A stretch of DNA of 64,000 nt from Actinomycetes bacterium (lineage in GTDB: Bacteria > Actinomycetota > Acidimicrobiia > Acidimicrobiales > Bog-793): assembly GCA_021798745.1 (NCBI GenBank), contig JAJZBW010000001.1, positions 1,188-65,187 of the forward strand. The letters are read 5' to 3'. Within the stretch, counting starts at the first letter, position 1. Each line of letters begins with the position of its first letter. The notes below the pieces were generated by a model that searched no databases, was not told the DNA's origin, and saw only the letters and a program-made list of their open reading frames with translations. Of this stretch, positions 1 to 63,874 are shown piece by piece. The position numbers and the translations under genes are program-made.

Positions 1-181
1 AGCGCTTCTCGCGATCGAGGAGCTCGAGCTCGCACAGTCGCAGCAGGTAGGTGAGGTGATCCGCGTTGTCCGTGGCCGCCTGGGCGGCCACCTTTTCGGC
101 CTCTTGACCCATGGTCGGGAGGCGGAGCGCCTTCAGATGGTGCCGCAGCAGCAGCATCTGCTTGGTCTCGAGTGCGTTCAT
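1..181 (-). CDS. istB: IS21-family helper ATPase IstB, N-terminal part only (continues off the left edge)
   Basis: A minus-strand ATG at 181..179 lies 3 nt after the istA stop. It translates to MNALETKQMLLLRHHLKALRLPTMGQEAEKVAAQAATDNADHLTYLLRLCELELLDREKR, a typical IstB N-terminus. Confidence 0.8.
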   Translation of the reverse strand, partial: MNALETKQMLLLRHHLKALRLPTMGQEAEKVAAQAATDNADHLTYLLRLCELELLDREKR

Positions 182-184
182 TGG

Positions 185-1687
185 TCATGCGCCTTTCTCG
201 GTGAGGGCCGCGTACGCAGTGAGGTCGGGTGCTTCGATGGCGACGGAGCGGAGGTGCGGGTGGCCGTCCAGGCTGAACAGTCCGACGGGACGCTCGGCCC
301 GATGCGCGAGGACGAGCCCGATCGCGTCCGCTCCCGTTGCGCCGATCGAAAGCGCGACCTCGATGGCCGCGGTGAGCTCGGCGAGCGTCGCATGCTCCAT
401 GAAGCGGAGCACCTTGATGAACTCGCGCGTGCCGGACGACCCGAGATCGGCCTCGAGCCGCCGGCGCAACAGCGCGAAGCAGCTCGGCAGCTCCCATCCC
501 TCGAGGGGCCGGGCGAAGTCGAATGCACCGGGCTTTCGTTCGAGAAGCGCCAGGTAGTGGCGCGGGTCGTAGGTGATGTGCTCACGGCCCCACCATCGGG
601 GGTGGGTGGCGACGAGCTCTGGTCCGAGAGAGATCGCGACCTCCTCGATCCCGCCGGCGACCGTCACCTCGTGGTGCGCGTAGGCGGTCGGGACCGAGTA
701 GTCGTTCTGGTCGAAGCGGACGAGGCTGAGCGAGCTCGCCCTCCGGTGCTCGATCCGACGCGGCTCGAAGACGGCACCGGGCAGGGCGAGCATCGCGGCC
801 CGGTCGTCTTCCAGGCGCTCAGCCTTGGTCTGTGCGTTGCCGCGGGTCCTGCGTGAGAGGTCGGCGAGGCACCGCTCGGCGAGGTGGACGTTCAGCTCGG
901 AGAACGACGAGAAGGACGGGACCGGGACGAGGAAGTTCCTCCGTCCATACCCGACGAGGTTCTCGACGTGGCCCTTCTCGTTTCCTCGCGCCACCCGGCA
1001 GAAGCGGTGGGTGAACAGGTAGTGGCTTTCCAGGCGGAGGAACTCCCGCGTGAGGTTCCGCTCTCTTCCGACGATCTTCGACACCGCGATCGAGGTGTTG
1101 TCATACGCGGTCTTTCTGGGGACGCCGCCGCAAAAGGAGAACGCGGCGACATGGCCGGCCTGGAAGGTCTCGGTGCACTCTCTCGGATAGGCCGAGACCG
1201 AGAACGCGTCGGAGTGCGGAAGCGTCATCACCGCGAGCGCGGCCTTCACCCGGTCACCTCCGATCTCGACGGTCGCCTCGCCGAAGTCGAACTGGGCCTC
1301 GCCGGGCGGCTGTGAGAGCGGGACGAAGACTTCGGCACTGTGGCGCCGGTACTCGGCGACGTAACGACGGACCGTCACCTCGCTGCCCACATAGCCGTGC
1401 TCGTCGCGCAGCCGGTCGAAGATCCGCCGAGCGGTGTGGCGCTGCTTCCTTGGTGTCGTGGGATCGGCGTCGCCGATGAGGATCTCGTCGATGTTCGCGA
1501 TGAACGGGCCGAGCTTGGGCTGGGTCTGGTGGGATCGGGCCGAATAGCCCGGCGGCTCGGGGTGGGCAAGCATCTTCTCGAGCGTCCACCAGCCGACGCC
1601 GTAATCCCTACAGATCGCCCGCTTCGAGACGCCCTCGACGAGCACCTTTCGCCGGATCTCGTTCCACTGCTCCATGTCGGTATGCAC
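185..1687 (-). CDS. istA: IS21-family transposase IstA
   Basis: This is a 500-aa ORF. It has an N-terminal HTH (VSKRAICRDYGVGWWTLEKML), a DDE-type core and the canonical istA-istB gene order. Confidence 0.9.
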   Translation of the reverse strand: MHTDMEQWNEIRRKVLVEGVSKRAICRDYGVGWWTLEKMLAHPEPPGYSARSHQTQPKLGPFIANIDEILIGDADPTTPRKQRHTARRIFDRLRDEHGYVGSEVTVRRYVAEYRRHSAEVFVPLSQPPGEAQFDFGEATVEIGGDRVKAALAVMTLPHSDAFSVSAYPRECTETFQAGHVAAFSFCGGVPRKTAYDNTSIAVSKIVGRERNLTREFLRLESHYLFTHRFCRVARGNEKGHVENLVGYGRRNFLVPVPSFSSFSELNVHLAERCLADLSRRTRGNAQTKAERLEDDRAAMLALPGAVFEPRRIEHRRASSLSLVRFDQNDYSVPTAYAHHEVTVAGGIEEVAISLGPELVATHPRWWGREHITYDPRHYLALLERKPGAFDFARPLEGWELPSCFALLRRRLEADLGSSGTREFIKVLRFMEHATLAELTAAIEVALSIGATGADAIGLVLAHRAERPVGLFSLDGHPHLRSVAIEAPDLTAYAALTEKGA

Positions 1688-1759
1688 CCTTCTCCCGTCC
1701 TGTTCGCTGGTCCTTCGAGGGAGCCTCGGGGATCGGTGAGGAACAGACGGGGATGGTCA

Positions 1760-1815
1760 GGTGCTGCCGTTTTCGATGATCACAAACCGGTCACGGGTGC
1801 TGCCGTTTTCGATGA
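1760..1815. repeat. Two perfect 20-nt direct repeats, GGTGCTGCCGTTTTCGATGA, with a 36-nt period; a degenerate third copy lies at about 1829-1839
   Basis: Read directly from the sequence (1760-1779 and 1796-1815). The position upstream of istA fits the multiple transposase-binding repeats known at IS21-family ends. Confidence 0.7.
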
Positions 1816-1964
1816 GCGTTTACAGAAGCTTCTCGATGACCGAGCCCGGCTCCGGGGATACGTCGGTCGAAGATCCCTCAGGCGTCATCAGACGCCCTCA
1901 ACCTCGGGCTGTCGTCGGACGTGCGGCCGTGAGCCGTCGGCAAACCCAACGCTGACGCTTGAAG

Positions 1965-2567
1965 TCATCCTCCTGACCTGCCGCTGTCGGGGAGTCCCGC
2001 GGGGATGAGTTGCTGGCAGATCTGCTGGGCGTGCATGAACTTCGCCGACTGGGTGTCAATGCTGGAGGGGACGTCGAAGTGGACAGTTCCGCCGGAGAAG
2101 GTGGGGTCAGGGAAGTTGGGGAAGCCGTGTGAGCGCAAGCAGGAAGCGGCCTTGAGGTAGTCCTGCTGGTCTTGGGCGGTGATCGTCTCGGCAGGCTGTC
2201 CACTCAGCCCGCCGGCGGGCATCAGGTTGTTGCAGGCATTCTGGGCCGCCTTCGCCTGCGAGCTGCTTACCGCCTGGAGCGCGTTGATCAAAGCTTGCTT
2301 CGGGATCCCTCCGCTGCCATCGGGGTCGGGGAAGTTCGGGACGCCGTGGGAGCGCATGCAGGAGGCGTAGGCCAAGAGTCCCGTTCCTTGCGTCCCGTGG
2401 CTACTGCCACCGGTCGAGCCGGTGGCTGCGCCAGGCGTCGGCGACCCACCACCGCAGGCAGCAAAAGTGACGCCAACCGCGAGGATTCCGGCCGCCATCA
2501 ACGCGGCGCGGCCCACCCGGGTCCGTCGTATCGGCCTGGGGTGGGTGGGGGCATCCAGATCGCCCAT
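1965..2567 (-). CDS. Secreted lipoprotein with an internally duplicated C-x-RSHG-x-P-x-FPDP module, function unknown (copy 1)
   Basis: It has a signal peptide and lipobox (RRTRVGRAALMAAGILAVGVTFAAC). Two repeats (SCMRSHGVPNFPDP and SCLRSHGFPNFPDP) are each followed by a second Cys. The start at M55 of the ORF is uncertain; an alternative ATG lies at 2615. Confidence 0.75.
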   Translation of the reverse strand: MGDLDAPTHPRPIRRTRVGRAALMAAGILAVGVTFAACGGGSPTPGAATGSTGGSSHGTQGTGLLAYASCMRSHGVPNFPDPDGSGGIPKQALINALQAVSSSQAKAAQNACNNLMPAGGLSGQPAETITAQDQQDYLKAASCLRSHGFPNFPDPTFSGGTVHFDVPSSIDTQSAKFMHAQQICQQLIPAGLPDSGRSGG

Positions 2568-2713
2568 CGACGGATCGGCCGGATGGTCGTGGCGAGTGCG
2601 AATCAGGGGAAGCATGTCGGCCAGTGTGTGCGGCCGGGGCGGCGTGACATATCGGCCACCGGAGCGGTTTGTAGACCCCTCGTTGGAGGGACTGCGACTC
2701 CCTCTTTGGAGGG

Positions 2714-4264
2714 ATGTCGTGGCAGCCAACCGGAGGTAGCGTCCGAAGCGTGTTGGAGCAGGTCGGACGCAGACTGTGGGGCATCTTCCGTCGGTTGATC
2801 GCGTCCTATGTCCTGGTCACGGTCGTGGTCGTGGTGCTGGTCGAGGCCTTCGTGCTCGGCTACCAGGTGCCCCGAATGGTGAGCGACACCCAGCTACACA
2901 CCCAGGTCCAGGAAACCGCGGCAAGCTACTGGGGCCAGCTCGTCCAGCGTTACCCCAGCGGCGTGCCGACCGGGGCCCTGCTCGGCGAGACCGGTCAGCG
3001 CCCGGAACCGGGCACCGCCCAGACGGCACCCGACGCCAGCACGCTCATCGTCCCGGCTGTCGCCGGCACGGTCAACAGCGACAAGGCGTTGACCGCGGTC
3101 GTAGCAATCGGGCAAGACGGCACGATCGTCGCTTCGTCGGCCCCGTCTCGCTACCCGCCCGGGCAACCTGCGGCAAGGTATCTGCCCGGCGGCGCCTCGG
3201 CGGCGATCCACGCCGGGCTCCTCAAGGGCGTTGGCGGCGGCATCGGATCGACTCCCTACGGCAGCGTCGCATGGACGCTGTACGGAGGGCGGAACCCTGT
3301 CAAATCTTCAGCCAGCGGCCCGGGCGGGACCTACCTCTATGTCCAGGCCCCTCACTCGACCGGGCTCGTCAACCCGATCCGAGCCTGGGACGAATTGGGC
3401 CAAGTTTCCGGCAACAGCCTGCTGTCCACCATCCTCTACGTTCTGCTGCTCGTCATCGTCCCCGTCGGCGTGCTGTTCGGGGTGCTCGCCTCTCGCCGGG
3501 TGGTGCGCCGGGTCCGCCGCTTGGAGCGAGCAACGGTGGCGGTCGCCGATGGCGACTACACCGTCGCCCTGCCTACCTCCGGTCGGGACGAGGTGGGGCG
3601 GCTCGAAGCGAACGTCGCCACGATGGCCCACCAGCTCAACTCCGCCCTCGCTGCCGAGCGCGAACGCGTCACTAGCGAAGCGCGTGCTGCCGAGCGGTCC
3701 CGGATCGCCCGGGAGATCCACGACGCCATCTCCCAACACCTCTTCGGCCTGCGCATGATCGCCTCGGGGATGCGCCGGGCCGACCCGCAGAACGAGCAGG
3801 TCCAGGCCATCGAACGCATCACCGAGGAGGCACTGCGCGACATGCAGATGCTGCTGCTCGAACTACGCCCCGCCGGCCTCGACGGTGCCGGCCTCGGCCC
3901 TGCCTTGGAGCAGATCTGCGCGGCTTACCACGACCGCCTCGGCGTGACCGTCGACGCCGACCTCGCCGACATCACCCTCCCCGAACCGGTCGAGGACGCC
4001 CTGTTGCGTGTCACGCAGGAGGCATGCACCAACGCCATCCGCCACGGCAACGCCCACCGGCTCGCCGTGTCCATGACCCGCCAGAACGGGCAGGTCGAGC
4101 TGGCCGTACGCGACAACGGGACTGGCTTCGACCCAGCCGCCTTGCACACCGGCTCCGGGCTGCGACACATCCACGACCGGGTCACCGAGCTCGGCGGCAC
4201 GGTGGACATCGACAGCGCACCGGGAGCGGGCGCCGCGGTCACCGTGCGCGTGCCAGCACCATGA
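2714..4264 (+). CDS. Sensor histidine kinase, NarL/HisKA_3 type, with HAMP
   Basis: It has two TM segments and a HAMP-like linker (DEVGRLEANVATMAHQLN). The H-box is REIHDAISQHLFGL and a HATPase_c C-terminus is present (DNGTGF...GSGLRHI). Confidence 0.9.
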   Translation: MSWQPTGGSVRSVLEQVGRRLWGIFRRLIASYVLVTVVVVVLVEAFVLGYQVPRMVSDTQLHTQVQETAASYWGQLVQRYPSGVPTGALLGETGQRPEPGTAQTAPDASTLIVPAVAGTVNSDKALTAVVAIGQDGTIVASSAPSRYPPGQPAARYLPGGASAAIHAGLLKGVGGGIGSTPYGSVAWTLYGGRNPVKSSASGPGGTYLYVQAPHSTGLVNPIRAWDELGQVSGNSLLSTILYVLLLVIVPVGVLFGVLASRRVVRRVRRLERATVAVADGDYTVALPTSGRDEVGRLEANVATMAHQLNSALAAERERVTSEARAAERSRIAREIHDAISQHLFGLRMIASGMRRADPQNEQVQAIERITEEALRDMQMLLLELRPAGLDGAGLGPALEQICAAYHDRLGVTVDADLADITLPEPVEDALLRVTQEACTNAIRHGNAHRLAVSMTRQNGQVELAVRDNGTGFDPAALHTGSGLRHIHDRVTELGGTVDIDSAPGAGAAVTVRVPAP

Positions 4265-4926
4265 CGATCCGGGTCGTGATCGCCGACGACCACCGCGTCG
4301 TCCGTGACGGACTGCACTACCTGCTCAGCCAAGAATCCGACGTCGAGGTAGTCGGGGAAGCCGAGGACGGCACGCAAACGCTGCGCGTCGCGGCCGCAAC
4401 CAACCCCGACGTGCTGCTGCTCGACCTCTACATGCCCAAGCTCGACGGGCACGGGGTCCTCGCCGCGCTACGCGACGCGGCGCACCAGCCGGCGGTCGTG
4501 GTGCTCACCTCGGCCACCGACGACGAGCACCTCGTCCGTGCCGTCCAGGCCGGCGCGACGTCCTACCTGGTCAAGACCGCTGCCGCCGAGGACGTCGTCG
4601 CTGCCGTGCGCGGCGCCGCCACCGGCGAAGCGAATCTCAGCCCCGATCTGGTGACTCGGCTCACCCGCGCCCTCCGCCGCCCACCGCCACCAAACCCGCT
4701 CCAACCCCTCTCGGCGCGCGAACGCGAAGTCCTCGACCTCATCGCCAGCGGTCACAGCAACCGCCAAATCGCCCGTGAGCTCATCATCAGCGAGCAAACC
4801 GTCAAGACCCACGTCAGCAGTATCCTCGCCAAACTCGATCTCCAAGACCGCGTCCAGGCTGCGATCTTCGCCCTCCGACATCGAGCAGACGAGGTCCAGT
4901 ACCGACCGCCGCACTCGTCGAAGTAA
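4261..4926 (+). CDS. Response regulator, NarL/LuxR family
   Basis: It begins MTIRVVIADDHRVVRDGL. A REC domain and a LuxR HTH (LSAREREVLDLIASGHSNRQIARELIISEQTVKTHV) are present. An ATGA overlap joins it to the kinase stop. Confidence 0.92.
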   Translation: MTIRVVIADDHRVVRDGLHYLLSQESDVEVVGEAEDGTQTLRVAAATNPDVLLLDLYMPKLDGHGVLAALRDAAHQPAVVVLTSATDDEHLVRAVQAGATSYLVKTAAAEDVVAAVRGAATGEANLSPDLVTRLTRALRRPPPPNPLQPLSAREREVLDLIASGHSNRQIARELIISEQTVKTHVSSILAKLDLQDRVQAAIFALRHRADEVQYRPPHSSK

Positions 4927-5089
4927 AGCGCTTTGACCAAGGGGCGAGGAGACCTCCGATCCGCTACACGACCAGCCCCTTCATCCGTTCCCGCAGGTCA
5001 GGGAAGTTTGAATAGGAGATCGTCTTCTCCACTCCGAGGTCTTCACGTTTGGACCTCACCCATCTTCGCTCGTCGGCGTGACACCGCCC

Positions 5090-5114
5090 GAACGGCCCCC
5101 GCAGGGGGCCGTTC
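5090..5114 (+). terminator. GC-rich hairpin (GAACGGCCCCC-gca-GGGGGCCGTTC), a possible terminator downstream of the response regulator
   Basis: A perfect 11-bp inverted repeat was read from the sequence. It has no U-tract and lies about 165 nt after the stop at 4926. Confidence 0.4.
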
Positions 5115-5601
5115 GTCGCGTTCCGCCCCCTTTCGAGGCGCGTGGCGATCCGAGCCGGCCAGGACGCGCACGGGCCCGGCGGGCGACTGCGGCGGCGCGT
5201 GTGCGCCGGAAGCGGCGAGGTCCGCGAGAGTGCTCCGGCGTCGAGGCCGGGGTCGCGGCACCGGTGCTGTGCTTCGGCGGGGGTCCTCGGTCCCGCGTGC
5301 GACGAAAGCGTCGACGAGGCCGAAGTCCACGACGGCGCACGAGCAGGCGAGGAACGGGCCGAACGGTGTGACGCCCGTTCCGACCTTTGGGGGTGCCGTG
5401 TGCCCATCATCTGCGGAGGTCCGGCCCGGCGCGCATGGCATATCCGGAGGCACCCCTTGGCCTGCCAGACGACCGGAGGGACCGGATCGTGCCTCGGCGG
5501 CTGCGCGCGCGCCGGCCCCGACGCCTCTGCGACGGCCGCAGGATCTAGCCTGCGGCGTGGCGACCAGCGCTCTGTCCACGTCGTCCCCGAAGGGAGTGTT
5601 C

Positions 5602-5991
5602 ATGATCGGCGAGAAGGTGCAGCACTTCCAGAACAAGGGCACGGATCTCGGCGAGCTCGAAGGGAAGATCGAGAGCTACCTCACGTCCGAAGGCTTCTCC
5701 GTCCAGACCTCGTCGCCCAGCACGCAAGGCCTCGTCCTCCAGGCGAAGAAGGGCGGGTTTCTCCGGGGCGTGGTCGACGCGGATCGCGCGCTTTCTATCG
5801 TCATCTCGGGCAATCCGAGTGATTTCACGGTCCGCATCGGGATCGGCAAGTGGCTGCAGGACTTCGGCGTCGCGGTGCTCGAGACGTTGCTCCTGTCGGA
5901 TCTCTTCCTCGTCGTCGACGTCGCCGAGTCCGCGTGGAACATCGAGATCGAGGACAAGCTCGCCAAGAAGATCGAGTCCTTCATCGAGTAG
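5602..5991 (+). CDS. Hypothetical protein (129 aa)
   Basis: An ATG is preceded by GAAGGGAG. The composition looks protein-like (MIGEKVQHFQNKGTDLGELEGKIESYLTSEGF...), unlike the Arg/Pro-rich upstream part of the 352-aa ORF. I recognise no family. Confidence 0.6.
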   Translation: MIGEKVQHFQNKGTDLGELEGKIESYLTSEGFSVQTSSPSTQGLVLQAKKGGFLRGVVDADRALSIVISGNPSDFTVRIGIGKWLQDFGVAVLETLLLSDLFLVVDVAESAWNIEIEDKLAKKIESFIE

Positions 5992-6471
5992 GGGGCCGGT
6001 AGGTCCGAGCCTCTGCCGAGAGGTGCCCGGCGCCCCTCGCATCTCACCGCAGGCACGTCGGAAGCCGCCGGTCCCCGCGCCGGTCCCGCCCAGGAGCACG
6101 ACGGCCCCGGACGGTGTCGACCAACGCGGCACCCGCACGTCGTACCCGGCGGGCACGTTCGGCTGCGTGATGCGCTCGGAAGACGCTTCGGAGCCGGCAC
6201 TCCCGAAGGATCCTGGCCGGGAGGTCCCGGCCGTGGGCGGTCCGGATCCGCCTGGGCTCGACGGAGACCCGGGCTATCGGAGTCCAACGAGTCGCTGATG
6301 CACCTCGACAGTGCCTGCATCCGCTCGCCAGAGAGCGACTCGGGCAGCGTATGCGCCTCGAAGGCGCGGAGACAGTCCTCGGTCGACGCCTCGGACTTCG
6401 CGACGTCGGCTCCGACCGGGGAGAGCTGTTCCTCGACGACCGGGTGTTGCCGCGGAGCCGAGGGATCTTCC

Positions 6472-60304: not shown

Positions 60305-60603
60305 GTCCGACCCCCTCGTCGTGTCGTCGGGCGTGAGCCTTGCATCCGCCGTGCGCGTACGCCAGCGCGACGAGCGCCCTCGAGGGGTCGGCGAGCCCCG
60401 TGGGCCCGCGACCGCCCCGGCGGCCCGCTCGGAGCCGCGCGCCGGCAGGACGAGGTGGTCGTGCCCGAACGCGGCGGGCACGTCGCAGCGACGGCCTCGG
60501 AGACGAACCTCCCGCGTCGCATCCGGGGCGCGGGGGTCGGCCACTAGGGTCCTCCGGAGTCGCGTCCGTCACGCCCGCCCCCCCGGAGAGCACCCGACCG
60601 AGC

Positions 60604-61800
60604 ATGCCCGACCATCTCGCGACCGTCGACCCTCGGGTGCTCCGAAGATGGCGGAGGACGGTCACCGGAGCGTTCGCGCTCGGGGGGATCGCGACGTCCG
60701 CGTGGGGCCCCCGTCTCCCTGCGGTGAAGGCGGACCTTCGAATCGGGACCGCCACGATCGGGGTCGTCCTCGCCGGGGCGACCGCGGGCGCGCTCGGAGG
60801 ACTTCTCGCCGCGAGCCCGCTTCTCGGGCGATTCGGGAGCCGGCGGAGCGTCGCGGGCGCGCTCGTCGCCGTCGCGGCCTCCCTCGCGCTCGTCGGCGCC
60901 GGGCTCACGCTCGGCTCCCTCCCGCTCGTCGCCGCTGCCTTCGTCGTGGTGGGTGCGGGCATCGGGACGCTCGACGTCGCGATCAACGTGGAGGGGGCGG
61001 CCATCGAGCGCGCCTCGGGCCGCACTCGGATGCCGATGATGCACGCCGCATGGTCGATCGGGGTCGGAGTGGGCTCGGGGATCGGCGCCGCGTGCGCGGC
61101 GGCGGGCGTCGACCCCGCGGCGCAGTTCGCGGCAGAGGCGGCCGCCATCGCCCTCGTCGCGCTCGTGACTGCGTCGGGGATCCCGGCGGGGCGCCGAGCG
61201 GTGGCGGAGCTCGCCGTGCGGCGCTCCGCCCGTGTGCGACGCTGGCTGCGCGGCTGGCTGGACGGCCGGCTTCTCCTCATCGGGCTCGTCCTGTTCGGGG
61301 TGGAGCTCGGCGAGGGCTCCGCGAACAGCTGGCTCGCCCTCGCGGCGCGGGCCGGTCACGGCGAGCCCGTGGCGGTCGCGGCGGCGTTCCTCACGGTGTT
61401 CGCGGCCGGGGAGGCCCTCTCGCGGCTGTTCGGGGGGCCGGTCGTGGACCGGCTCGGACGGGTCGCGACCATCCGCGTCACGACCGCGCTCGGTGCCGTC
61501 GGGGTCGTGCTCTTCGTCGAGGGGAGCGGCCTCGTGGTCGCCCTCACCGGGGTCGTGCTGTGGTCGGTCGGGGTGTCGATGGGCTTCCCGCTCGGGATGT
61601 CCGCCGCGGCGGAGAGCGGGCCCGATCCCGCCTCACGAGTGAGCGTGGTCGCGTCCGTCGGCTACTTCGCGGGCCTGGCGGGCCCGCCGGTGGTCGGCGC
61701 CCTCGCGCAGGAGACGAGCCTGCTCCACGCGCTGCTCCTCGTCGCCGCGTCCCTGCTCGCGGCGTTCGCCGTCGCGGGCTCGCTGCGCACGCGCCGCTGA
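60604..61800 (+). CDS. MFS transporter
   Basis: It is 398 aa with about 12 TM segments. An MFS-like loop (GRFGSRR) is present. It is divergent from the decarboxylase operon. Confidence 0.8.
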   Translation: MPDHLATVDPRVLRRWRRTVTGAFALGGIATSAWGPRLPAVKADLRIGTATIGVVLAGATAGALGGLLAASPLLGRFGSRRSVAGALVAVAASLALVGAGLTLGSLPLVAAAFVVVGAGIGTLDVAINVEGAAIERASGRTRMPMMHAAWSIGVGVGSGIGAACAAAGVDPAAQFAAEAAAIALVALVTASGIPAGRRAVAELAVRRSARVRRWLRGWLDGRLLLIGLVLFGVELGEGSANSWLALAARAGHGEPVAVAAAFLTVFAAGEALSRLFGGPVVDRLGRVATIRVTTALGAVGVVLFVEGSGLVVALTGVVLWSVGVSMGFPLGMSAAAESGPDPASRVSVVASVGYFAGLAGPPVVGALAQETSLLHALLLVAASLLAAFAVAGSLRTRR

Positions 61801-61828
61801 GGGGCGGTGGGCGCCCGAGCGGGCCCTG

Positions 61829-61880
61829 CGGTGGTCGGGACCGGCGTCGATCCGGTGACCTCGCGCTTCTCATTCGCGCT
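61829..61880 (-). repeat. Duplicated 3' part of tRNA-Phe (att-type direct repeat); not a functional tRNA
   Basis: Positions 61829-61868 are identical to 63377-63416, covering the acceptor 3' strand, the T-arm and part of the anticodon stem. Similarity continues with mismatches to about 61880. No D-arm or 5' acceptor strand lies upstream. Confidence 0.85.
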
Positions 61881-61986
61881 GGGGTCGCGTCGCGCCGGCT
61901 CCTCGTGGACCATCAGGGACGTGCCATCGCAGGTGAAAGGCCATTCTTGAGGTGATGGACACGACCGAGAGCTGCCGGGATTGACC

Positions 61987-62022
61987 GTGGCGTGCCACCC
62001 GATGTGGCACGAAAGTGGCACG
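61987..62022. promoter_or_regulatory. Cluster of GTGGCACG-type motifs (GTGGCGTGCCAC inverted pair, then GTGGCACG twice)
   Basis: Read directly from the sequence, about 120-190 nt inside the left att repeat. They are candidate recombinase arm-type or Xis sites. Confidence 0.35.
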
Positions 62023-62134
62023 GTGCTCGGAGTCGGCGGCATGGCCTGCGAGCCCTCATGAGGGGCCTGCCCGCTTGCGGCCCGTTGCCAGGCCATCCGC
62101 GGGCGCGGTCGGATGAGCACAGCAACGTGCTCCT

Positions 62135-62545
62135 GTGAGCTCCGTCGAGCGGGCCTTCACCTCCGACGAGGTGACCCGGTTCACGAGCGTCAGCCGTCGG
62201 CGGCTGGCGCACTGGCTGGACAAGGGGGTCCTCAGCGCCGACGTCGACGAGGCGCGCGGTCGTGGGCGTGCGCGCCTCTGCTCCTTCGCCAACCTGGTGG
62301 AGGTTCGGGTTGCCCTCTGGCTGCGAGCGCACGTCTCCGTGCAGCTCCTCCGTGAGGTCGTTGCCGCCCTTCGACGGCGTGGCCTCGCCTATCCGCTCGC
62401 CGAGGTCAGCGCGGCCGTCGTCGACGGGCCGATTCGCTCCCGTGTGCCTGTCCTCATGGCGGACGGGTCGTGGGAGGAGCCGCTCACGGGACAGATCGTG
62501 ATGGAGCTCGTCGTCCCGGTCGGACAGCTGTCGGCGTTCAAGTAA
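62135..62545 (+). CDS. MerR-family/excisionase-like HTH DNA-binding protein
   Basis: It has a GTG start. The N-terminal HTH reads FTSDEVTRFTSVSRRRLAHWLDKGVL. It is 136 aa and lies inside the element relic. Confidence 0.6.
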   Translation: MSSVERAFTSDEVTRFTSVSRRRLAHWLDKGVLSADVDEARGRGRARLCSFANLVEVRVALWLRAHVSVQLLREVVAALRRRGLAYPLAEVSAAVVDGPIRSRVPVLMADGSWEEPLTGQIVMELVVPVGQLSAFK

Positions 62546-62704
62546 TCCCGCAGCTCAGCGGGTCGGCGTTCAAGCTATCCAGCACCTCGACGTTCACGTA
62601 ATCCCGCACTTTCGAGGCGGGGCATCCACCACCTCGGCTCCTTGATCAAGTAGCTGCTTCTCGTTCCCAAGCGAGAGGCACCGATGACAAGGAGAAGCTT
62701 CACC

Positions 62705-62912
62705 ATGATCGACATCGTCGAGATCCTCACGCACTGGCACGCCGGACGGAACAAGGCCGAGGTCGCCCGAAGCCTCGGGGTGGACCGGGGCACCGTCGCC
62801 AAGTACATCGCGAAGGCCGAGGCCGAGGGCTACGTGCCCGGCAGCGAGCCGCTCAGCCCCGAACGGTGGTCAACGCTCGTGCACGGCTGGTTCCCCGAGC
62901 TCGTCGACCTGT
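62705..62912 (+). pseudogene. Truncated IS21-family istA (N-terminal about 70 codons only)
   Basis: MIDIVEILTHWHAGRNKAEVARSLGVDRGTVAKYIAKAEAEGYVPG...WFPELVD is an IstA-type N-terminal HTH. Recognisable sequence stops at about 62912. Confidence 0.7.
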
Positions 62913-62928
62913 CCCGATGTCGGCATAG

Positions 62929-63063
62929 GTCGACGATGACGAGCTCGAAGCGGAGCAGCTGCTCGATCGTTCTTCCGACCGAGCTGTCGGCCGTCGCGCG
63001 ATAGAGCGTCTCGACGAGCTCGGCCGCGCAGAAGTAGCGGACGCGGATGCCCGCCTCGACCGC
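62929..63063 (-). pseudogene. Internal fragment of IS21-family istB (about 45 codons), inverted relative to the istA stub
   Basis: AVEAGIRVRYFCAAELVETLYRATADSSVGRTIEQLLRFELVIVD matches the IstB region between Walker A and Walker B. Confidence 0.65.
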
Positions 63064-63204
63064 GCGAGCCCGAGGGCGGCGATGATCTACCAGCACGCCG
63101 CCGACGACCGGGACCGGCTGATCGCCGACGGGCTCGATGCGATGGCGGCCGAGGCCGACCTCGCTCCGGTGGTCTCGCTGGAGGAGCGGTCGACACGCCG
63201 CTGA
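63064..63204 (+). pseudogene. C-terminal stub (about 47 codons) of a tyrosine recombinase/integrase
   Basis: ASPRAAMIYQHAADDRDRLIADGLDAM... matches the conserved integrase tail (the catalytic Tyr context ..IYQHA..DRD..IA). It ends at the TGA at 63202-63204, about 175 nt from the tRNA-Phe 3' end. Confidence 0.65.
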
Positions 63205-63300
63205 GGCGGCGGGGGCACCTGCCCGGGCCCCGACACCGACCGGCCGCTGGCCCGTGCGTGCCCTCAGAGGCCGCCGGCGACCGTGGCTGCCCGTTGCGCT

Positions 63301-63319
63301 GTGGCACGCTCGTGGCACG
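63301..63319. promoter_or_regulatory. Two further GTGGCACG motifs (11-nt spacing) between the integrase stub and tRNA-Phe
   Basis: GTGGCACGCTCGTGGCACG was read directly from the sequence, 60-80 nt from the tRNA 3' end. Confidence 0.35.
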
Positions 63320-63379
63320 CCGATCGGGGCTCGACGGGGGTCCTCGCGGGAACACCCCGCCTGAGCTGGGGAGATTCGG

Positions 63380-63452
63380 TGGTCGGGACCGGCGTCGATC
63401 CGGTGACCTCGCGCTTTTCAGGCGCGCGCTCTGCCAACTGAGCTACCCGACC
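63380..63452 (-). tRNA. tRNA-Phe (anticodon GAA)
   Basis: The reverse complement is GGTCGGGTAGCTCAGTTGGCAGAGCGCGCGCCTGAAAAGCGCGAGGTCACCGGATCGACGCCGGTCCCGACCA, which folds as a cloverleaf. The anticodon loop is CTGAAAA. Only the CC of CCA is encoded. Confidence 0.93.
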
Positions 63453-63531
63453 TCGCCGGCTACCGCCGACCGACCGAATATACGAGCCGGAGACGGAACT
63501 CGCGGCACGCCGGCCGGCCGGCGCTCGCCGG

Positions 63532-63609
63532 TGGCGGACCTGACGGGATTTGAACCCGCGACCTCCGGCTTGACAGGCCGGCGTGCACTCCGAGCTGCAC
63601 CACAGGTCC
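63532..63609 (-). tRNA. tRNA-Asp (anticodon GTC), CCA encoded
   Basis: The reverse complement is GGACCTGTGGTGCAGCTCGGAGTGCACGCCGGCCTGTCAAGCCGGAGGTCGCGGGTTCAAATCCCGTCAGGTCCGCCA. The anticodon loop is CTGTCAA. Confidence 0.93.
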
Positions 63610-63801
63610 TCGCAGGGGCCGACGTCCACGCGGCGCCCGTCGGCGCGACACCGGCCCGGTGAGGCGACCACGGATACTAGGCGATCGACGGCCGAGCCGT
63701 GACCAGGGACGCTGCCGACGACGCGCTCCGGCGTCGGCCCCGGGTCGCTGCGGAGCGTCTCCGCTACGATCGTCCGGAGCGGCGGGCACCCGCGCGGTCC
63801 G

Positions 63802-63874
63802 CACCCCCAACGGGATTCGAACCCGTGTTACCGCCTTGAAAGGGCGGCGTCCTCGGCCGCTGGACGATGGGGGC
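63802..63874 (-). tRNA. tRNA-Glu (anticodon TTC)
   Basis: The reverse complement is GCCCCCATCGTCCAGCGGCCGAGGACGCCGCCCTTTCAAGGCGGTAACACGGGTTCGAATCCCGTTGGGGGTG. The anticodon loop is CTTTCAA. The first acceptor pair is G1-U72, and no CCA is encoded. Confidence 0.88.

What the first reader, a model, noticed from the sequence alone, without database searches (positions are those of the whole stretch)
61829..63452. tRNA-Phe 3'-end duplication marks a decayed integrative element
The 40 nt at 61829-61868 are identical to 63377-63416, covering the acceptor 3' strand, the T-arm and the start of the anticodon stem of tRNA-Phe. Similarity continues for about 12 more nt with mismatches. This is the classic attL/attR signature of site-specific integration into a tRNA 3' end. 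Only about 1.5 kb lies between the repeats. It holds a MerR/excisionase-like gene, an integrase C-terminal stub and IS21 debris, so most of the element has been deleted and it can no longer excise by itself.
Basis: partly seen in the sequence, partly recalled or inferred. Interest (0 to 1): 0.6.

Follow-up and report, generated by a model that had tools for sequence, protein, structure and literature searches.

The report
Decayed mobile-element scar at tRNA-Phe
A 1.6-kb stretch next to a phenylalanine tRNA gene is the gutted remains of a mobile DNA element that once inserted into that gene, which is a common and well-understood kind of genomic scar.

Summary
Positions 61829-61868 are identical to 63377-63416 (40/40). 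The match extends to 51 nt (48/51) and occurs nowhere else in the window. The right copy is the 3' part of an intact tRNA-Phe(GAA) gene, from position 26 to the 3' end.

The 1.5 kb between the copies is the wreck of a tyrosine-integrase integrative element:
- **Integrase tail:** only the last ~40 codons survive (83% identical to residues 362-401 of full-length PF00589 integrases). In Acidimicrobiia/Actinomycetota MAGs those integrases sit convergent to tRNA-Phe, beside TrwC relaxases in three intact relatives checked.
- **Arm sites:** both element arms keep a TGGCACG-N4-TGGCACG doublet. The same or a near-variant doublet lies 58-90 bp from tRNA-Phe in 19 of 21 loci, so it is probably an integrase arm-binding site.
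- **"MerR/excisionase-like" gene:** this is not an excisionase. It is the N-terminal 131 codons of a MerR-HTH+DUF433 antitoxin-type gene, cut by an IS21 left end.
- **IS21 debris:** IstA codons 1-68 are fused to an inverted IstB fragment.

A related metagenomic strain carries the same remnant without IS21. No empty site was found, because no close relative is available.

Verdict: an ordinary decayed island, CIME-like (both att sites kept, mobility genes lost). Interest is low.

The parts
61829..61879 (-). Displaced 3' fragment of tRNA-Phe, the distal att site (attR-type). Positions 61829-61868 are identical to the tRNA. Positions 61869-61879 carry the 3 mismatches and are inferred to be attP-derived, lying beyond the crossover.
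   Evidence: not called as a tRNA
61880..62134 (+). Distal element arm with TGGCACG-type sites: 61920-61926(-), 61991-61998(-), 62004-62011(+), 62015-62022(+). The last two form a doublet with 11-bp spacing. These are candidate integrase arm-type binding sites.
   Evidence: same layout in L005
62135..62545 (+). Truncated MerR-HTH+DUF433 antitoxin-type gene. Codons 1-131 (to 62527) are homologous to 207-aa relatives; the last 5 codons and the stop come from IS21 sequence. The whole DUF433 domain and the downstream PIN-like toxin gene are missing.
   Evidence: P0002, 83% identity, 207 aa, PF04255; P0002: MerR_1 at residues 8-64, DUF433 at 153-204; homology to L005 ends at 62527
62529..62612 (+). 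IS21-family left terminus, starting TGT, with three ~27-nt direct repeats (62530-62556, 62562-62588, 62586-62612).
   Evidence: repeats unique in the window; position fixed by the homology break with L005. Assignment as an IS end is inferred from the known IS21 end structure.
62705..62908 (+). IS21 IstA transposase fragment, residues 1-68 of ~530 (HTH only).
   Evidence: 58.8% identity to annotated istA, E 2e-20; (NF033546)
62908..63066 (-). Inverted internal fragment of the IS21 helper ATPase IstB (profile positions 115-167 of 238).
   Evidence: PF01695, E 1.2e-6, 28.6 bits, cutoff 24.1; NF038214, E 1.5e-7
63049..63204 (+). Tyrosine-integrase C-terminal tail, the last ~40-50 codons including the Box II tyrosine in 'MIYQHA'. 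All other catalytic residues are missing.
   Evidence: 83% identity over 40 aa to residues 362-401 of the L018 integrase, E 4e-17
63205..63376 (+). Integrase-proximal element arm with a TGGCACG doublet at 63301-63308 and 63312-63319 (11-bp spacing), 58-76 bp from the tRNA 3' end.
   Evidence: The same or a near-variant doublet is at the same distance from tRNA-Phe in 19 of 21 loci; the exact GTGGCACG form in 7 of them.
63378..63452 (-). Intact, regenerated tRNA-Phe(GAA). Its 3' part (63377-63427) is the proximal att site (attL-type).
   Evidence: (64.2 bits)

Best explanation
This is the inert remnant of an integrative, probably conjugative or mobilizable, element. The element used a tyrosine integrase to recombine its attP with the anticodon-loop-to-3'-end segment of tRNA-Phe.

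Integration split the tRNA gene. The element supplied a new 3' part, so the tRNA stayed intact at 63378-63452. The original 3' part was displaced 1548 bp away to 61829-61879, next to the MFS gene.

The element then decayed in steps:
1. Transfer genes and most of int were lost.
2. An IS21 inserted into the antitoxin-type MerR-HTH+DUF433 gene at codon 131.
3. IS21-associated rearrangements removed everything between that point and the last ~40 codons of int. They left IstA codons 1-68 fused to an inverted IstB piece.

Shown directly:
- the repeat and the intact tRNA;
- the identity of each gene fragment;
- homology of the int tail to tRNA-Phe-linked integrases;
- conserved TGGCACG doublets in both arms;
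- a relative carrying the same remnant without IS21.

Inferred:
- the order of decay events;
- a crossover in the anticodon loop (the three mismatches all lie on the side that would come from attP);
- TGGCACG as integrase arm-binding sites;
- a relaxase-bearing ICE/IME as the ancestor;
- inactivation or co-deletion of the toxin gene no later than the disruption of the antitoxin gene.
For: **Repeat and tRNA.** The repeat is 40/40 and 48/51, is unique in the window, and has zero chance expectation. The tRNA-Phe is intact. The fragment and the tRNA have the orientation expected for an island between a regenerated tDNA and its displaced 3' fragment, the principle stated in PMC4383910.

**Integrase tail.** It is 83% identical over 40 aa to residues 362-401 of the L018 integrase. 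L018 and L023 have PF00589 (E 5e-19 and 7e-18). A scan of GTDB species genomes returned 80 loci. In 18 of them, including most of the closest matches, tRNA-Phe(GAA) lies convergently downstream of the int frame. More distant relatives sit at other tRNAs.

**Arm sites.** The TGGCACG-N4-TGGCACG doublet occurs only twice in the window, both inside the element and in the same orientation. The same or a near-variant doublet lies 58-90 bp from the tRNA-Phe 3' end in 19 of 21 loci.

**Intact relatives.** In L015, L021 and L023 the integrase is adjacent to a TrwC relaxase of 930-1060 aa. L023 has an HTH_17 xis-like gene just upstream of int.

**Closest relative.** L005/L176 has the same att fragment (51-52 nt), the same distal-arm layout, a full MerR-DUF433 gene, a DUF5615/PIN_10 toxin gene, a degenerate int tail, and tRNA-Phe. 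It has no IS21. Its homology to the window breaks exactly at 62527 and resumes at 63126.

**IS21 parts.**

**Other remnants.** Decayed remnants bounded by tRNA-Phe fragments also occur in L019, L040 and L051.
Against: - No empty site (MFS gene followed directly by tRNA-Phe) could be shown. The closest MFS homologues are at most 71% identical and none has a tRNA downstream.
- The GC deviation is modest: 69.5% inside against 72.6% for the window, about the 12th percentile of equal-sized windows.
- No intact family member with both ends was recovered, so the size and gene content of the ancestor are unknown.
- The relaxase link rests on three loci and on one contig with a MerR-DUF433 homologue.
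- The arm-site role of TGGCACG is inferred from position and conservation only.
- The left flank differs between the window (MFS) and L005 (an older int remnant plus VapBC). It is therefore undecided whether the two remnants share an integration event.
Confidence: 0.9

Rival explanations
1. The remnant is not fully dead. It is a non-autonomous, cis/trans-mobilizable element (CIME-like). It keeps both att cores and both sets of arm sites, and it can be excised or moved when a cognate tRNA-Phe integrase arrives with another element.
For: - Both att copies share a perfect 40-nt core, and both arms keep the TGGCACG doublet.
- Cognate full-length integrases are common in related MAGs.
- The same minimal architecture sits in a different left-flank context in L005/L176.
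- Tandem arrays at tRNA-Phe exist in L005, L040 and L051.
- CIMEs are defined as elements that lost integration and transfer genes but retained attL and attR (PMC5704250).
Against: - No cognate integrase is present in the 64-kb window; only the stub is found.
- No excised or empty-site contigs were seen in the same metagenomes.
- The three mismatches sit in the presumed crossover and core-binding region of the distal copy.
- Nothing shows mobility. Shared ancestry, or excision of an older tandem neighbour, explains the different flanks equally well.
Confidence: 0.1
2. The ancestor was a temperate phage or a pSAM2-type actinomycete element (AICE: Int, Xis, RepSA and an FtsK-like Tra), not a relaxase-bearing ICE/IME.
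For: - tRNA 3'-end integration with an anticodon-to-3'-end identity block is also typical of actinobacterial AICEs and prophages (established knowledge).
- Nothing diagnostic of the transfer mode survives in the window.
- One distant MerR-DUF433 homologue lies near a phage capsid-like gene (L178).
Against: - In all three intact close relatives examined, the gene next to int is a TrwC relaxase-helicase. No capsid, terminase, RepSA or FtsK-like genes were seen among the large ORFs scanned within 6 kb upstream.
- Another MerR-DUF433/DUF5615 pair lies on a contig with a TrwC relaxase.
Confidence: 0.07
3. The 51-nt repeat arose without site-specific integration, for example by a local duplication or an IS21-mediated rearrangement that copied part of the tRNA gene.
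For: IS21 debris with at least two illegitimate junctions lies between the copies, so the region has been rearranged.
Against: - The fragment boundary (51-52 nt, 3' end to position 26) is the same in L005/L176, which lacks IS21.
- The fragment is oriented and placed as a displaced 3' tDNA fragment.
- Integrase remnants and conserved arm doublets flank it.
- The IS21 end lies 650 bp from the fragment, not next to it.
Confidence: 0.02

Closest known systems
Genomic islands at tRNA genes as mapped by Islander (regenerated tDNA plus displaced 3' fragment, anticodon-centred 'A' crossover class)
   Same: An intact tRNA lies at one end and a same-orientation 3' fragment at the other. The identity block runs from the anticodon region to the 3' end. 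A tyrosine-integrase gene lies next to the intact tRNA (PMC4383910).
   Different: Only ~40 codons of int survive, and the interval is 1.5 kb. It would therefore fail Islander's integrase and length filters. It is a scar, not an island.
CIMEs (cis-mobilizable elements) derived from decayed ICEs/IMEs, first described in streptococci
   Same: Integration and transfer genes are lost while attL and attR are retained. Tandem accretion with other elements occurs at the same tRNA in relatives (PMC5704250).
   Different: No mobilization has been shown. The host lineage is different (Actinomycetota MAG). The distal core has three mismatches.
ICEs/IMEs with a MOBF (TrwC-type) relaxase and a tRNA-targeting tyrosine integrase
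   Same: The closest full-length integrases sit beside TrwC relaxase-helicases, and one has an HTH_17 Xis-like gene.
   Different: No relaxase, oriT or coupling-protein remnant is detectable in the window. Whether the relatives are self-transmissible or only mobilizable is unknown.
PIN-COG2442 (DUF433) toxin-antitoxin pairs, including HTH-DUF433 fusions such as Rv2018/Rv2019
   Same: Homologues of the 136-aa ORF are HTH+DUF433 proteins followed by DUF5615/PIN_10 genes. This matches the predicted PIN-COG2442 TA class and its HTH fusions (PMC2701414).
   Different: In the window the DUF433 domain and the toxin gene are gone, so no TA function can remain.
IS21-family insertion sequences (IstA transposase, IstB helper ATPase, ends with multiple repeats)
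   Same: An IstA N-terminal HTH, an IstB internal fragment, and a TGT-starting left end with three repeats are present.
   Different: Only 68 IstA codons and ~53 IstB codons remain. The IstB piece is inverted and there is no right end. The element is non-functional debris.

Membership tests
tRNA-integrated tyrosine-recombinase element (genomic island) or its remnant | Intact target tRNA plus a same-orientation displaced fragment of that tRNA bounding the element | tested here: met
tRNA-integrated tyrosine-recombinase element (genomic island) or its remnant | Tyrosine integrase gene at the tRNA-proximal end | tested here: met
   Present only as a remnant. The last ~40 codons are 83% identical to full-length PF00589 integrases that sit next to tRNA-Phe. 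Not functional.
tRNA-integrated tyrosine-recombinase element (genomic island) or its remnant | Empty (unoccupied) site in a related genome | tested here: inconclusive
   No MFS orthologue above 71% identity exists in the collections, and none of 80 MFS loci has a downstream tRNA.
tRNA-integrated tyrosine-recombinase element (genomic island) or its remnant | Composition differs from the flanks | tested here: inconclusive
   69.5% GC inside against 76.5% in the left flank and 72.6% window mean. This is only the 12th percentile of equal-sized windows.
CIME (cis-mobilizable element) | attL and attR retained; integration and transfer genes lost | tested here: met
CIME (cis-mobilizable element) | Excision or transfer when a cognate element supplies the integrase | not testable with these tools
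   Needs an excision assay or read-level evidence of attB/attP junctions.
AICE (pSAM2-type actinomycete integrative and conjugative element) | Int-Xis with RepSA-type replication and an FtsK/SpoIIIE-like Tra protein | tested here: not met
   Nothing of this kind is present in the window. Intact relatives carry a TrwC relaxase next to int instead. Only large ORFs within 6 kb upstream were examined.
Excisionase (Xis, HTH_17 / MerR-like, ~60-80 aa) | Small stand-alone HTH_17/excisionase-domain protein next to int | tested here: not met
   For the 136-aa ORF, MerR_1 scores E 0.01 and HTH_17 E 0.068, both below cutoff. Its homologues are 207-230 aa with DUF433 and a PIN-like neighbour. The true Xis-like gene in L023 is a different 70-aa protein.
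PIN-COG2442 (DUF433) toxin-antitoxin module | DUF433 domain in the antitoxin | tested here: not met
   The window ORF ends at codon 131, before the DUF433 domain (residues 153-204 in P0002).
PIN-COG2442 (DUF433) toxin-antitoxin module | Adjacent PIN-like (DUF5615/PIN_10) toxin gene | tested here: not met
   Absent in the window, replaced by IS21 debris. Present in L176, L177, L006 and L011.
IS21 family insertion sequence | Full istA (HTH + DDE/rve) and istB (AAA+) genes between two terminal inverted repeats | tested here: not met
   Only IstA residues 1-68, an inverted IstB fragment (profile positions 115-167 of 238) and a left end remain.

The most novel reading that the evidence does not exclude
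The 1.5-2.2 kb unit (att, arm sites, MerR-DUF433 TA module, int tail, arm sites, att) could be a propagating miniature non-autonomous element rather than a passive scar. It would parasitise the tRNA-Phe integrases of TrwC-relaxase elements in Acidimicrobiia-like Actinomycetota, and that would explain its presence in two different flank contexts.
Probability: 0.07. Interest if true: 0.5.

Novelty: new member of a known kind. Interest (0 to 1): 0.15.

Why it matters
It matters little for biology at large. It is a textbook tDNA-integration scar.

It has some practical value:
- It shows that short remnants lacking an integrase can still be delimited exactly by the tRNA fragment, even though integrase and length filters in island finders would miss them.
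- It corrects an 'excisionase' guess to a truncated antitoxin gene.
- It brings out a so far uncharacterised clade of tRNA-Phe-specific integrases in uncultured Acidimicrobiia/Actinomycetota. The clade has a conserved TGGCACG-N4-TGGCACG arm motif and TrwC relaxase partners, and could serve as a marker for annotating mobile elements in these MAGs.

Tried and rejected
- **Empty site.** A metagenome scan with the MFS protein gave 80 loci at 59-70% identity, none with a downstream tRNA. A protein search found nothing above 71% identity except the source organism itself. No empty site could be shown.
- **Integrase stub against other libraries.** tblastn of the stub against plasmids found no match. 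Pfam and NCBIfam gave no hit on the stub because it is too short.
- **IS21 terminus.** An annotated Streptomyces IS21 (L095) was fetched to compare termini. Another transposase abuts its istA, so it gave no usable end.
- **Hidden remnants.** Relaxase, xis and neighbouring ORFs from intact relatives were searched against the window element and L005, with nothing significant. L005 4020-4680 remains unidentified.
- **Second int-like stretch.** The stretch at 60534-60698 (40% over 57 aa) was rejected as chance. It lies in an alternative frame over the MFS N-terminus; that N-terminal peptide (MPDHLATV) served as a scan pattern and several homologues align from residue 1.
- **38-nt similarity.** The similarity between 61789-61826 and 63193-63230 (D7) was rejected as chance. 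It is not in register with the att repeat.
- **Signals.** No promoter-like or terminator-like signals were found in 61700-63500.
- **Other IS21 in the window.** The full-length IS21-type transposase at 185-1687 is unrelated to the debris.
Full report
**1. Observation**

The window carries tRNA-Phe(GAA) at 63378-63452, tRNA-Asp at 63532-63609 and tRNA-Glu at 63801-63874, all on the minus strand. Rfam confirms them at 64.2, 65.4 and 63.5 bits.

The 40 nt at 61829-61868 are identical to 63377-63416. In register, the match runs to 51 nt with three mismatches, at 61869, 61873 and 61874. With up to 3 mismatches the 40-mer occurs only at these two places, and 100 shuffles gave none. With up to 12 mismatches over 45 nt there is still no third copy.

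Reading the tRNA from the sequence, the perfect 40 nt run from anticodon-loop position 37 to the 3' end, plus a partial CC tail and one further base. The imperfect 11 nt cover the rest of the anticodon loop and the 5' strand of the anticodon stem.

**2. What lies between the copies**

From left to right:

(a) *Distal arm, 61880-62134.* It contains TGGCACG-type sites at 61920(-), 61991(-), 62004(+) and 62015(+).

(b) *A 136-aa ORF, 62135-62545.* It scores only weakly for MerR_1 (E 0.01, below cutoff).
- Its homologues are 207-230 aa proteins with an N-terminal MerR-type HTH and a C-terminal DUF433 domain. One example is P0002, 83% identical, with MerR_1 at residues 8-64 and DUF433 at 153-204.
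- In relatives the next gene is a DUF5615/PIN_10 protein. This matches the PIN-COG2442(DUF433) toxin-antitoxin class and its HTH-fusion variants described in PMC2701414.
- The window ORF matches only through codon 131 (62527). It therefore has no DUF433 domain and no toxin partner.

(c) *IS21 left end.* Directly at the break, from T62529 (TGT...), three ~27-nt direct repeats follow (62530-62612). They are unique in the window. I read this as an IS21-family left end. IS21 ends carrying multiple repeats is established knowledge about the family, and I did not verify it against an intact copy of this particular IS.

(d) *IstA fragment.* Residues 1-68 lie at 62705-62908. They are 58.8% identical to annotated istA genes, E 2e-20.

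(e) *IstB fragment.* Abutting at 62908 is an inverted internal IstB piece, 63066-62908 on the minus strand, matching PF01695 positions 115-167 of 238 (E 1.2e-6, above the cutoff). Neither side of this piece is an IS end, so at least two illegitimate junctions exist.

(f) *Integrase tail, 63049-63204.* The sequence is ARLDRASPRAAMIYQHAADDRDRLIADGLDAMAAEADLAP...

(g) *Proximal arm, 63205-63376.* It has a TGGCACG doublet at 63301 and 63312.

(h) *The tRNA.*

**3. The integrase tail and its family**

The tail alone gave no Pfam hit and no plasmid hit. A protein search found only other short stubs of 40-79 aa from Actinomycetota/Acidimicrobiales MAGs, one of them with PF00589.

A scan of one genome per GTDB species, using an alignment of these stubs, returned 80 loci.
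- Many have open frames of 390-440 aa.
- L018 and L023 score PF00589 at E 5e-19 and 7e-18.
- The window tail is 83% identical over 40 aa to residues 362-401 of the 428-codon L018 frame (E 4e-17).

The tail therefore covers only the end of Box II, with the catalytic tyrosine (IYQH), plus the C-terminal extension. The Arg, Lys and His-x-x-Arg residues are all missing, so it cannot be active.

In 18 loci, tRNA-Phe(GAA) lies convergently downstream of the int frame, overlapping it in L019 and otherwise 13 to 5763 bp away. These are L015-L021, L023, L024, L026-L028, L031, L037, L038, L040, L051 and L072. More distant integrases of the same set sit at tRNA-Gly, -Glu, -Ala, -Arg, -Leu, -Val, -Asn or -Thr.

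**4. Conserved arm motif**

The doublet TGGCACG-N4-TGGCACG occurs exactly twice in the window, both times inside the element and in the same orientation. The chance expectation is 0.05.

The same doublet, or the near variants CTGGCACG or GGGGCACG with the same 11-bp period, lies 58-90 bp from the tRNA-Phe 3' end in 19 of 21 loci examined. These include loci with intact integrases, such as L018, L021, L023 and L026.

The distal arm of L005 has the same layout as the window's: one inverted site, then an inverted site followed by a direct doublet.

Position, helical-turn spacing and conservation across genomes make these good candidates for integrase arm-type binding sites. This is an inference.

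**5. What the intact element was**

In L015, L021 and L023 the large gene next to int is a TrwC relaxase-helicase of 930-1060 aa (E 1e-74 to 1e-85). L023 has a 70-aa HTH_17 gene directly upstream of int. L015 also carries an HTH+DUF433 gene and a PIN_10 fragment. A further MerR-DUF433/DUF5615 pair lies on a contig with a TrwC relaxase.

The ancestor was therefore most likely an ICE or IME with a MOBF-type relaxase, rather than a prophage or a pSAM2-type AICE. No complete family member with both ends was recovered, because flanks were limited to 6 kb.

**6. A relative with the same remnant**

L005 is a 5.7-kb contig from the same sample series. L176 is 99.4% identical to it.

These contigs align to the window at 61831-62527 (76.7%) and 63126-63609 (78.6%), but not in between. 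They contain:
- a 51-52-nt tRNA-Phe fragment;
- the same distal arm;
- a full-length MerR-DUF433 gene;
- a DUF5615/PIN_10 toxin gene, intact in L176 and carrying a 1-nt indel in L005;
- ~660 bp of unidentified DNA;
- a degenerate int tail;
- the TGGCACG doublet;
- tRNA-Phe.

They have no IS21. This locates the IS21 insertion and the associated deletion as events specific to the window's lineage.

To the left of the L005 fragment lies the C-terminal half of another integrase of the same family, plus a VapBC pair. That is an older remnant, showing tandem accretion at the same tRNA. In the window the fragment is instead 28 bp from the stop codon of an MFS transporter gene (60604-61800; PF07690, E 1e-20).

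Other decayed intervals bounded by tRNA-Phe fragments occur in L019 (~0.75 kb), L051 (~2.6 kb) and L040 (~3.3 kb). tRNA-Phe appears to be a recurrent integration and decay site in this group of bacteria.

**7. Mechanism**

The geometry follows the standard rule: a regenerated tDNA and its displaced fragment mark the island ends (PMC4383910).

- The tRNA is on the minus strand with its 3' end on the left, so the element lies to the left of the tRNA.
- The 5' part of the tRNA (63417-63452) is of host origin, and its 3' part (63377-63416) came from attP.
- The left copy's 61829-61868 is the original host 3' part, and 61869-61879 came from attP.
- All three mismatches fall in that attP-derived stretch.

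This pattern fits a crossover in or next to the anticodon loop, which is Islander's anticodon-centred class, the majority class in that database. Later mutation of the non-functional copy is an alternative explanation, because L005's fragment is identical through 51-52 nt.

Disrupting an antitoxin gene is tolerated only if the toxin is already inactive or is removed at the same time. The toxin gene was therefore probably lost no later than the IS21 event (inference).

**8. Tests that failed or were inconclusive**

No empty site was found. The GC dip is modest. No promoter-like or terminator-like signals were found. No relaxase or xis remnants were found in the window or in L005.

**9. Comparison and verdict**

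This is a decayed integrative-element remnant. Structurally it fits the CIME definition, with att sites kept and integration and transfer genes lost (PMC5704250).
- It is not an AICE.
- The 136-aa ORF is not an excisionase.
- No functional toxin-antitoxin module or IS21 remains.

On novelty, this is a new member of a known kind. The only mildly new material is the uncharacterised tRNA-Phe integrase clade of uncultured Actinomycetota, with its TGGCACG arm motif and TrwC partners.

Interest is 0.15. The most novel reading not excluded is that the mini-element is still mobilizable in trans. I give that about 7-10%.

The source is a MAG labelled Actinomycetota bacterium, with locus tags M0Z33_06715 and M0Z33_06730.

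Noticed in passing
window 185-1687 (-), and window 1-6000: A full-length IS21-type IstA-like transposase of 500 aa (rve plus Mu-transpos_C_2) lies at the left edge of the window. It is unrelated to the IS21 debris in the finding. The first ~6 kb have lower GC (0.67-0.68 against a 0.73 mean) and also hold a histidine kinase / LuxR-type response regulator pair.
   Followed up: partly
L005 1671-2780 (also L176 3-601): To the left of the relative's tRNA-Phe fragment there is an older remnant. It consists of a VapC-type PIN gene with a small upstream ORF (a presumed antitoxin, no Pfam hit) and the C-terminal half of a second integrase of the same family, running right up to the fragment. This is tandem accretion of decayed elements.
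   Followed up: partly
L012 9926-11209: An Acidimicrobiales MAG has an N-terminally truncated integrase of the same clade. Two small genes resembling a toxin-antitoxin pair (66 and 141 aa, no Pfam hit) lie between int and tRNA-Phe. A triple GTGGCACG array lies 58-86 bp from the tRNA. No tRNA fragment was detected within 10 kb.
   Followed up: partly
L019 5592-6416; L040 7085-10483; L051 9333-12021: These are further short intervals bounded by a tRNA-Phe 3' fragment and the intact tRNA (~0.75, 3.3 and 2.6 kb). The L040 and L051 fragments match the tRNA only as far as TTTTCAG (about 43-45 nt), which suggests a second element family with a different attP at the same tRNA.
   Followed up: no
window 60534-60698 (+, alternative frame): There is weak similarity (40% over 57 aa, E 8e-4 in a 4-kb search) to the same integrase C-terminus. 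It overlaps the start of the MFS gene in another frame. I judged it a chance match in GC-rich sequence, because MFS homologues align from the protein's first residues.
   Followed up: partly
window 61789-61826 vs 63193-63230: A 38-nt, 76% similarity links the 3' end of the MFS gene and the 3' end of the integrase tail; both end in ...RR-stop. It is not in register with the att repeat and I judged it chance (family D7).
   Followed up: no
L001 5617-5677 vs window 63452-63532: A strain variant of the same organism in another sample has a tRNA-Phe/tRNA-Asp spacer 20 nt shorter (59 against 79 nt). The remnant is otherwise the same.
   Followed up: no
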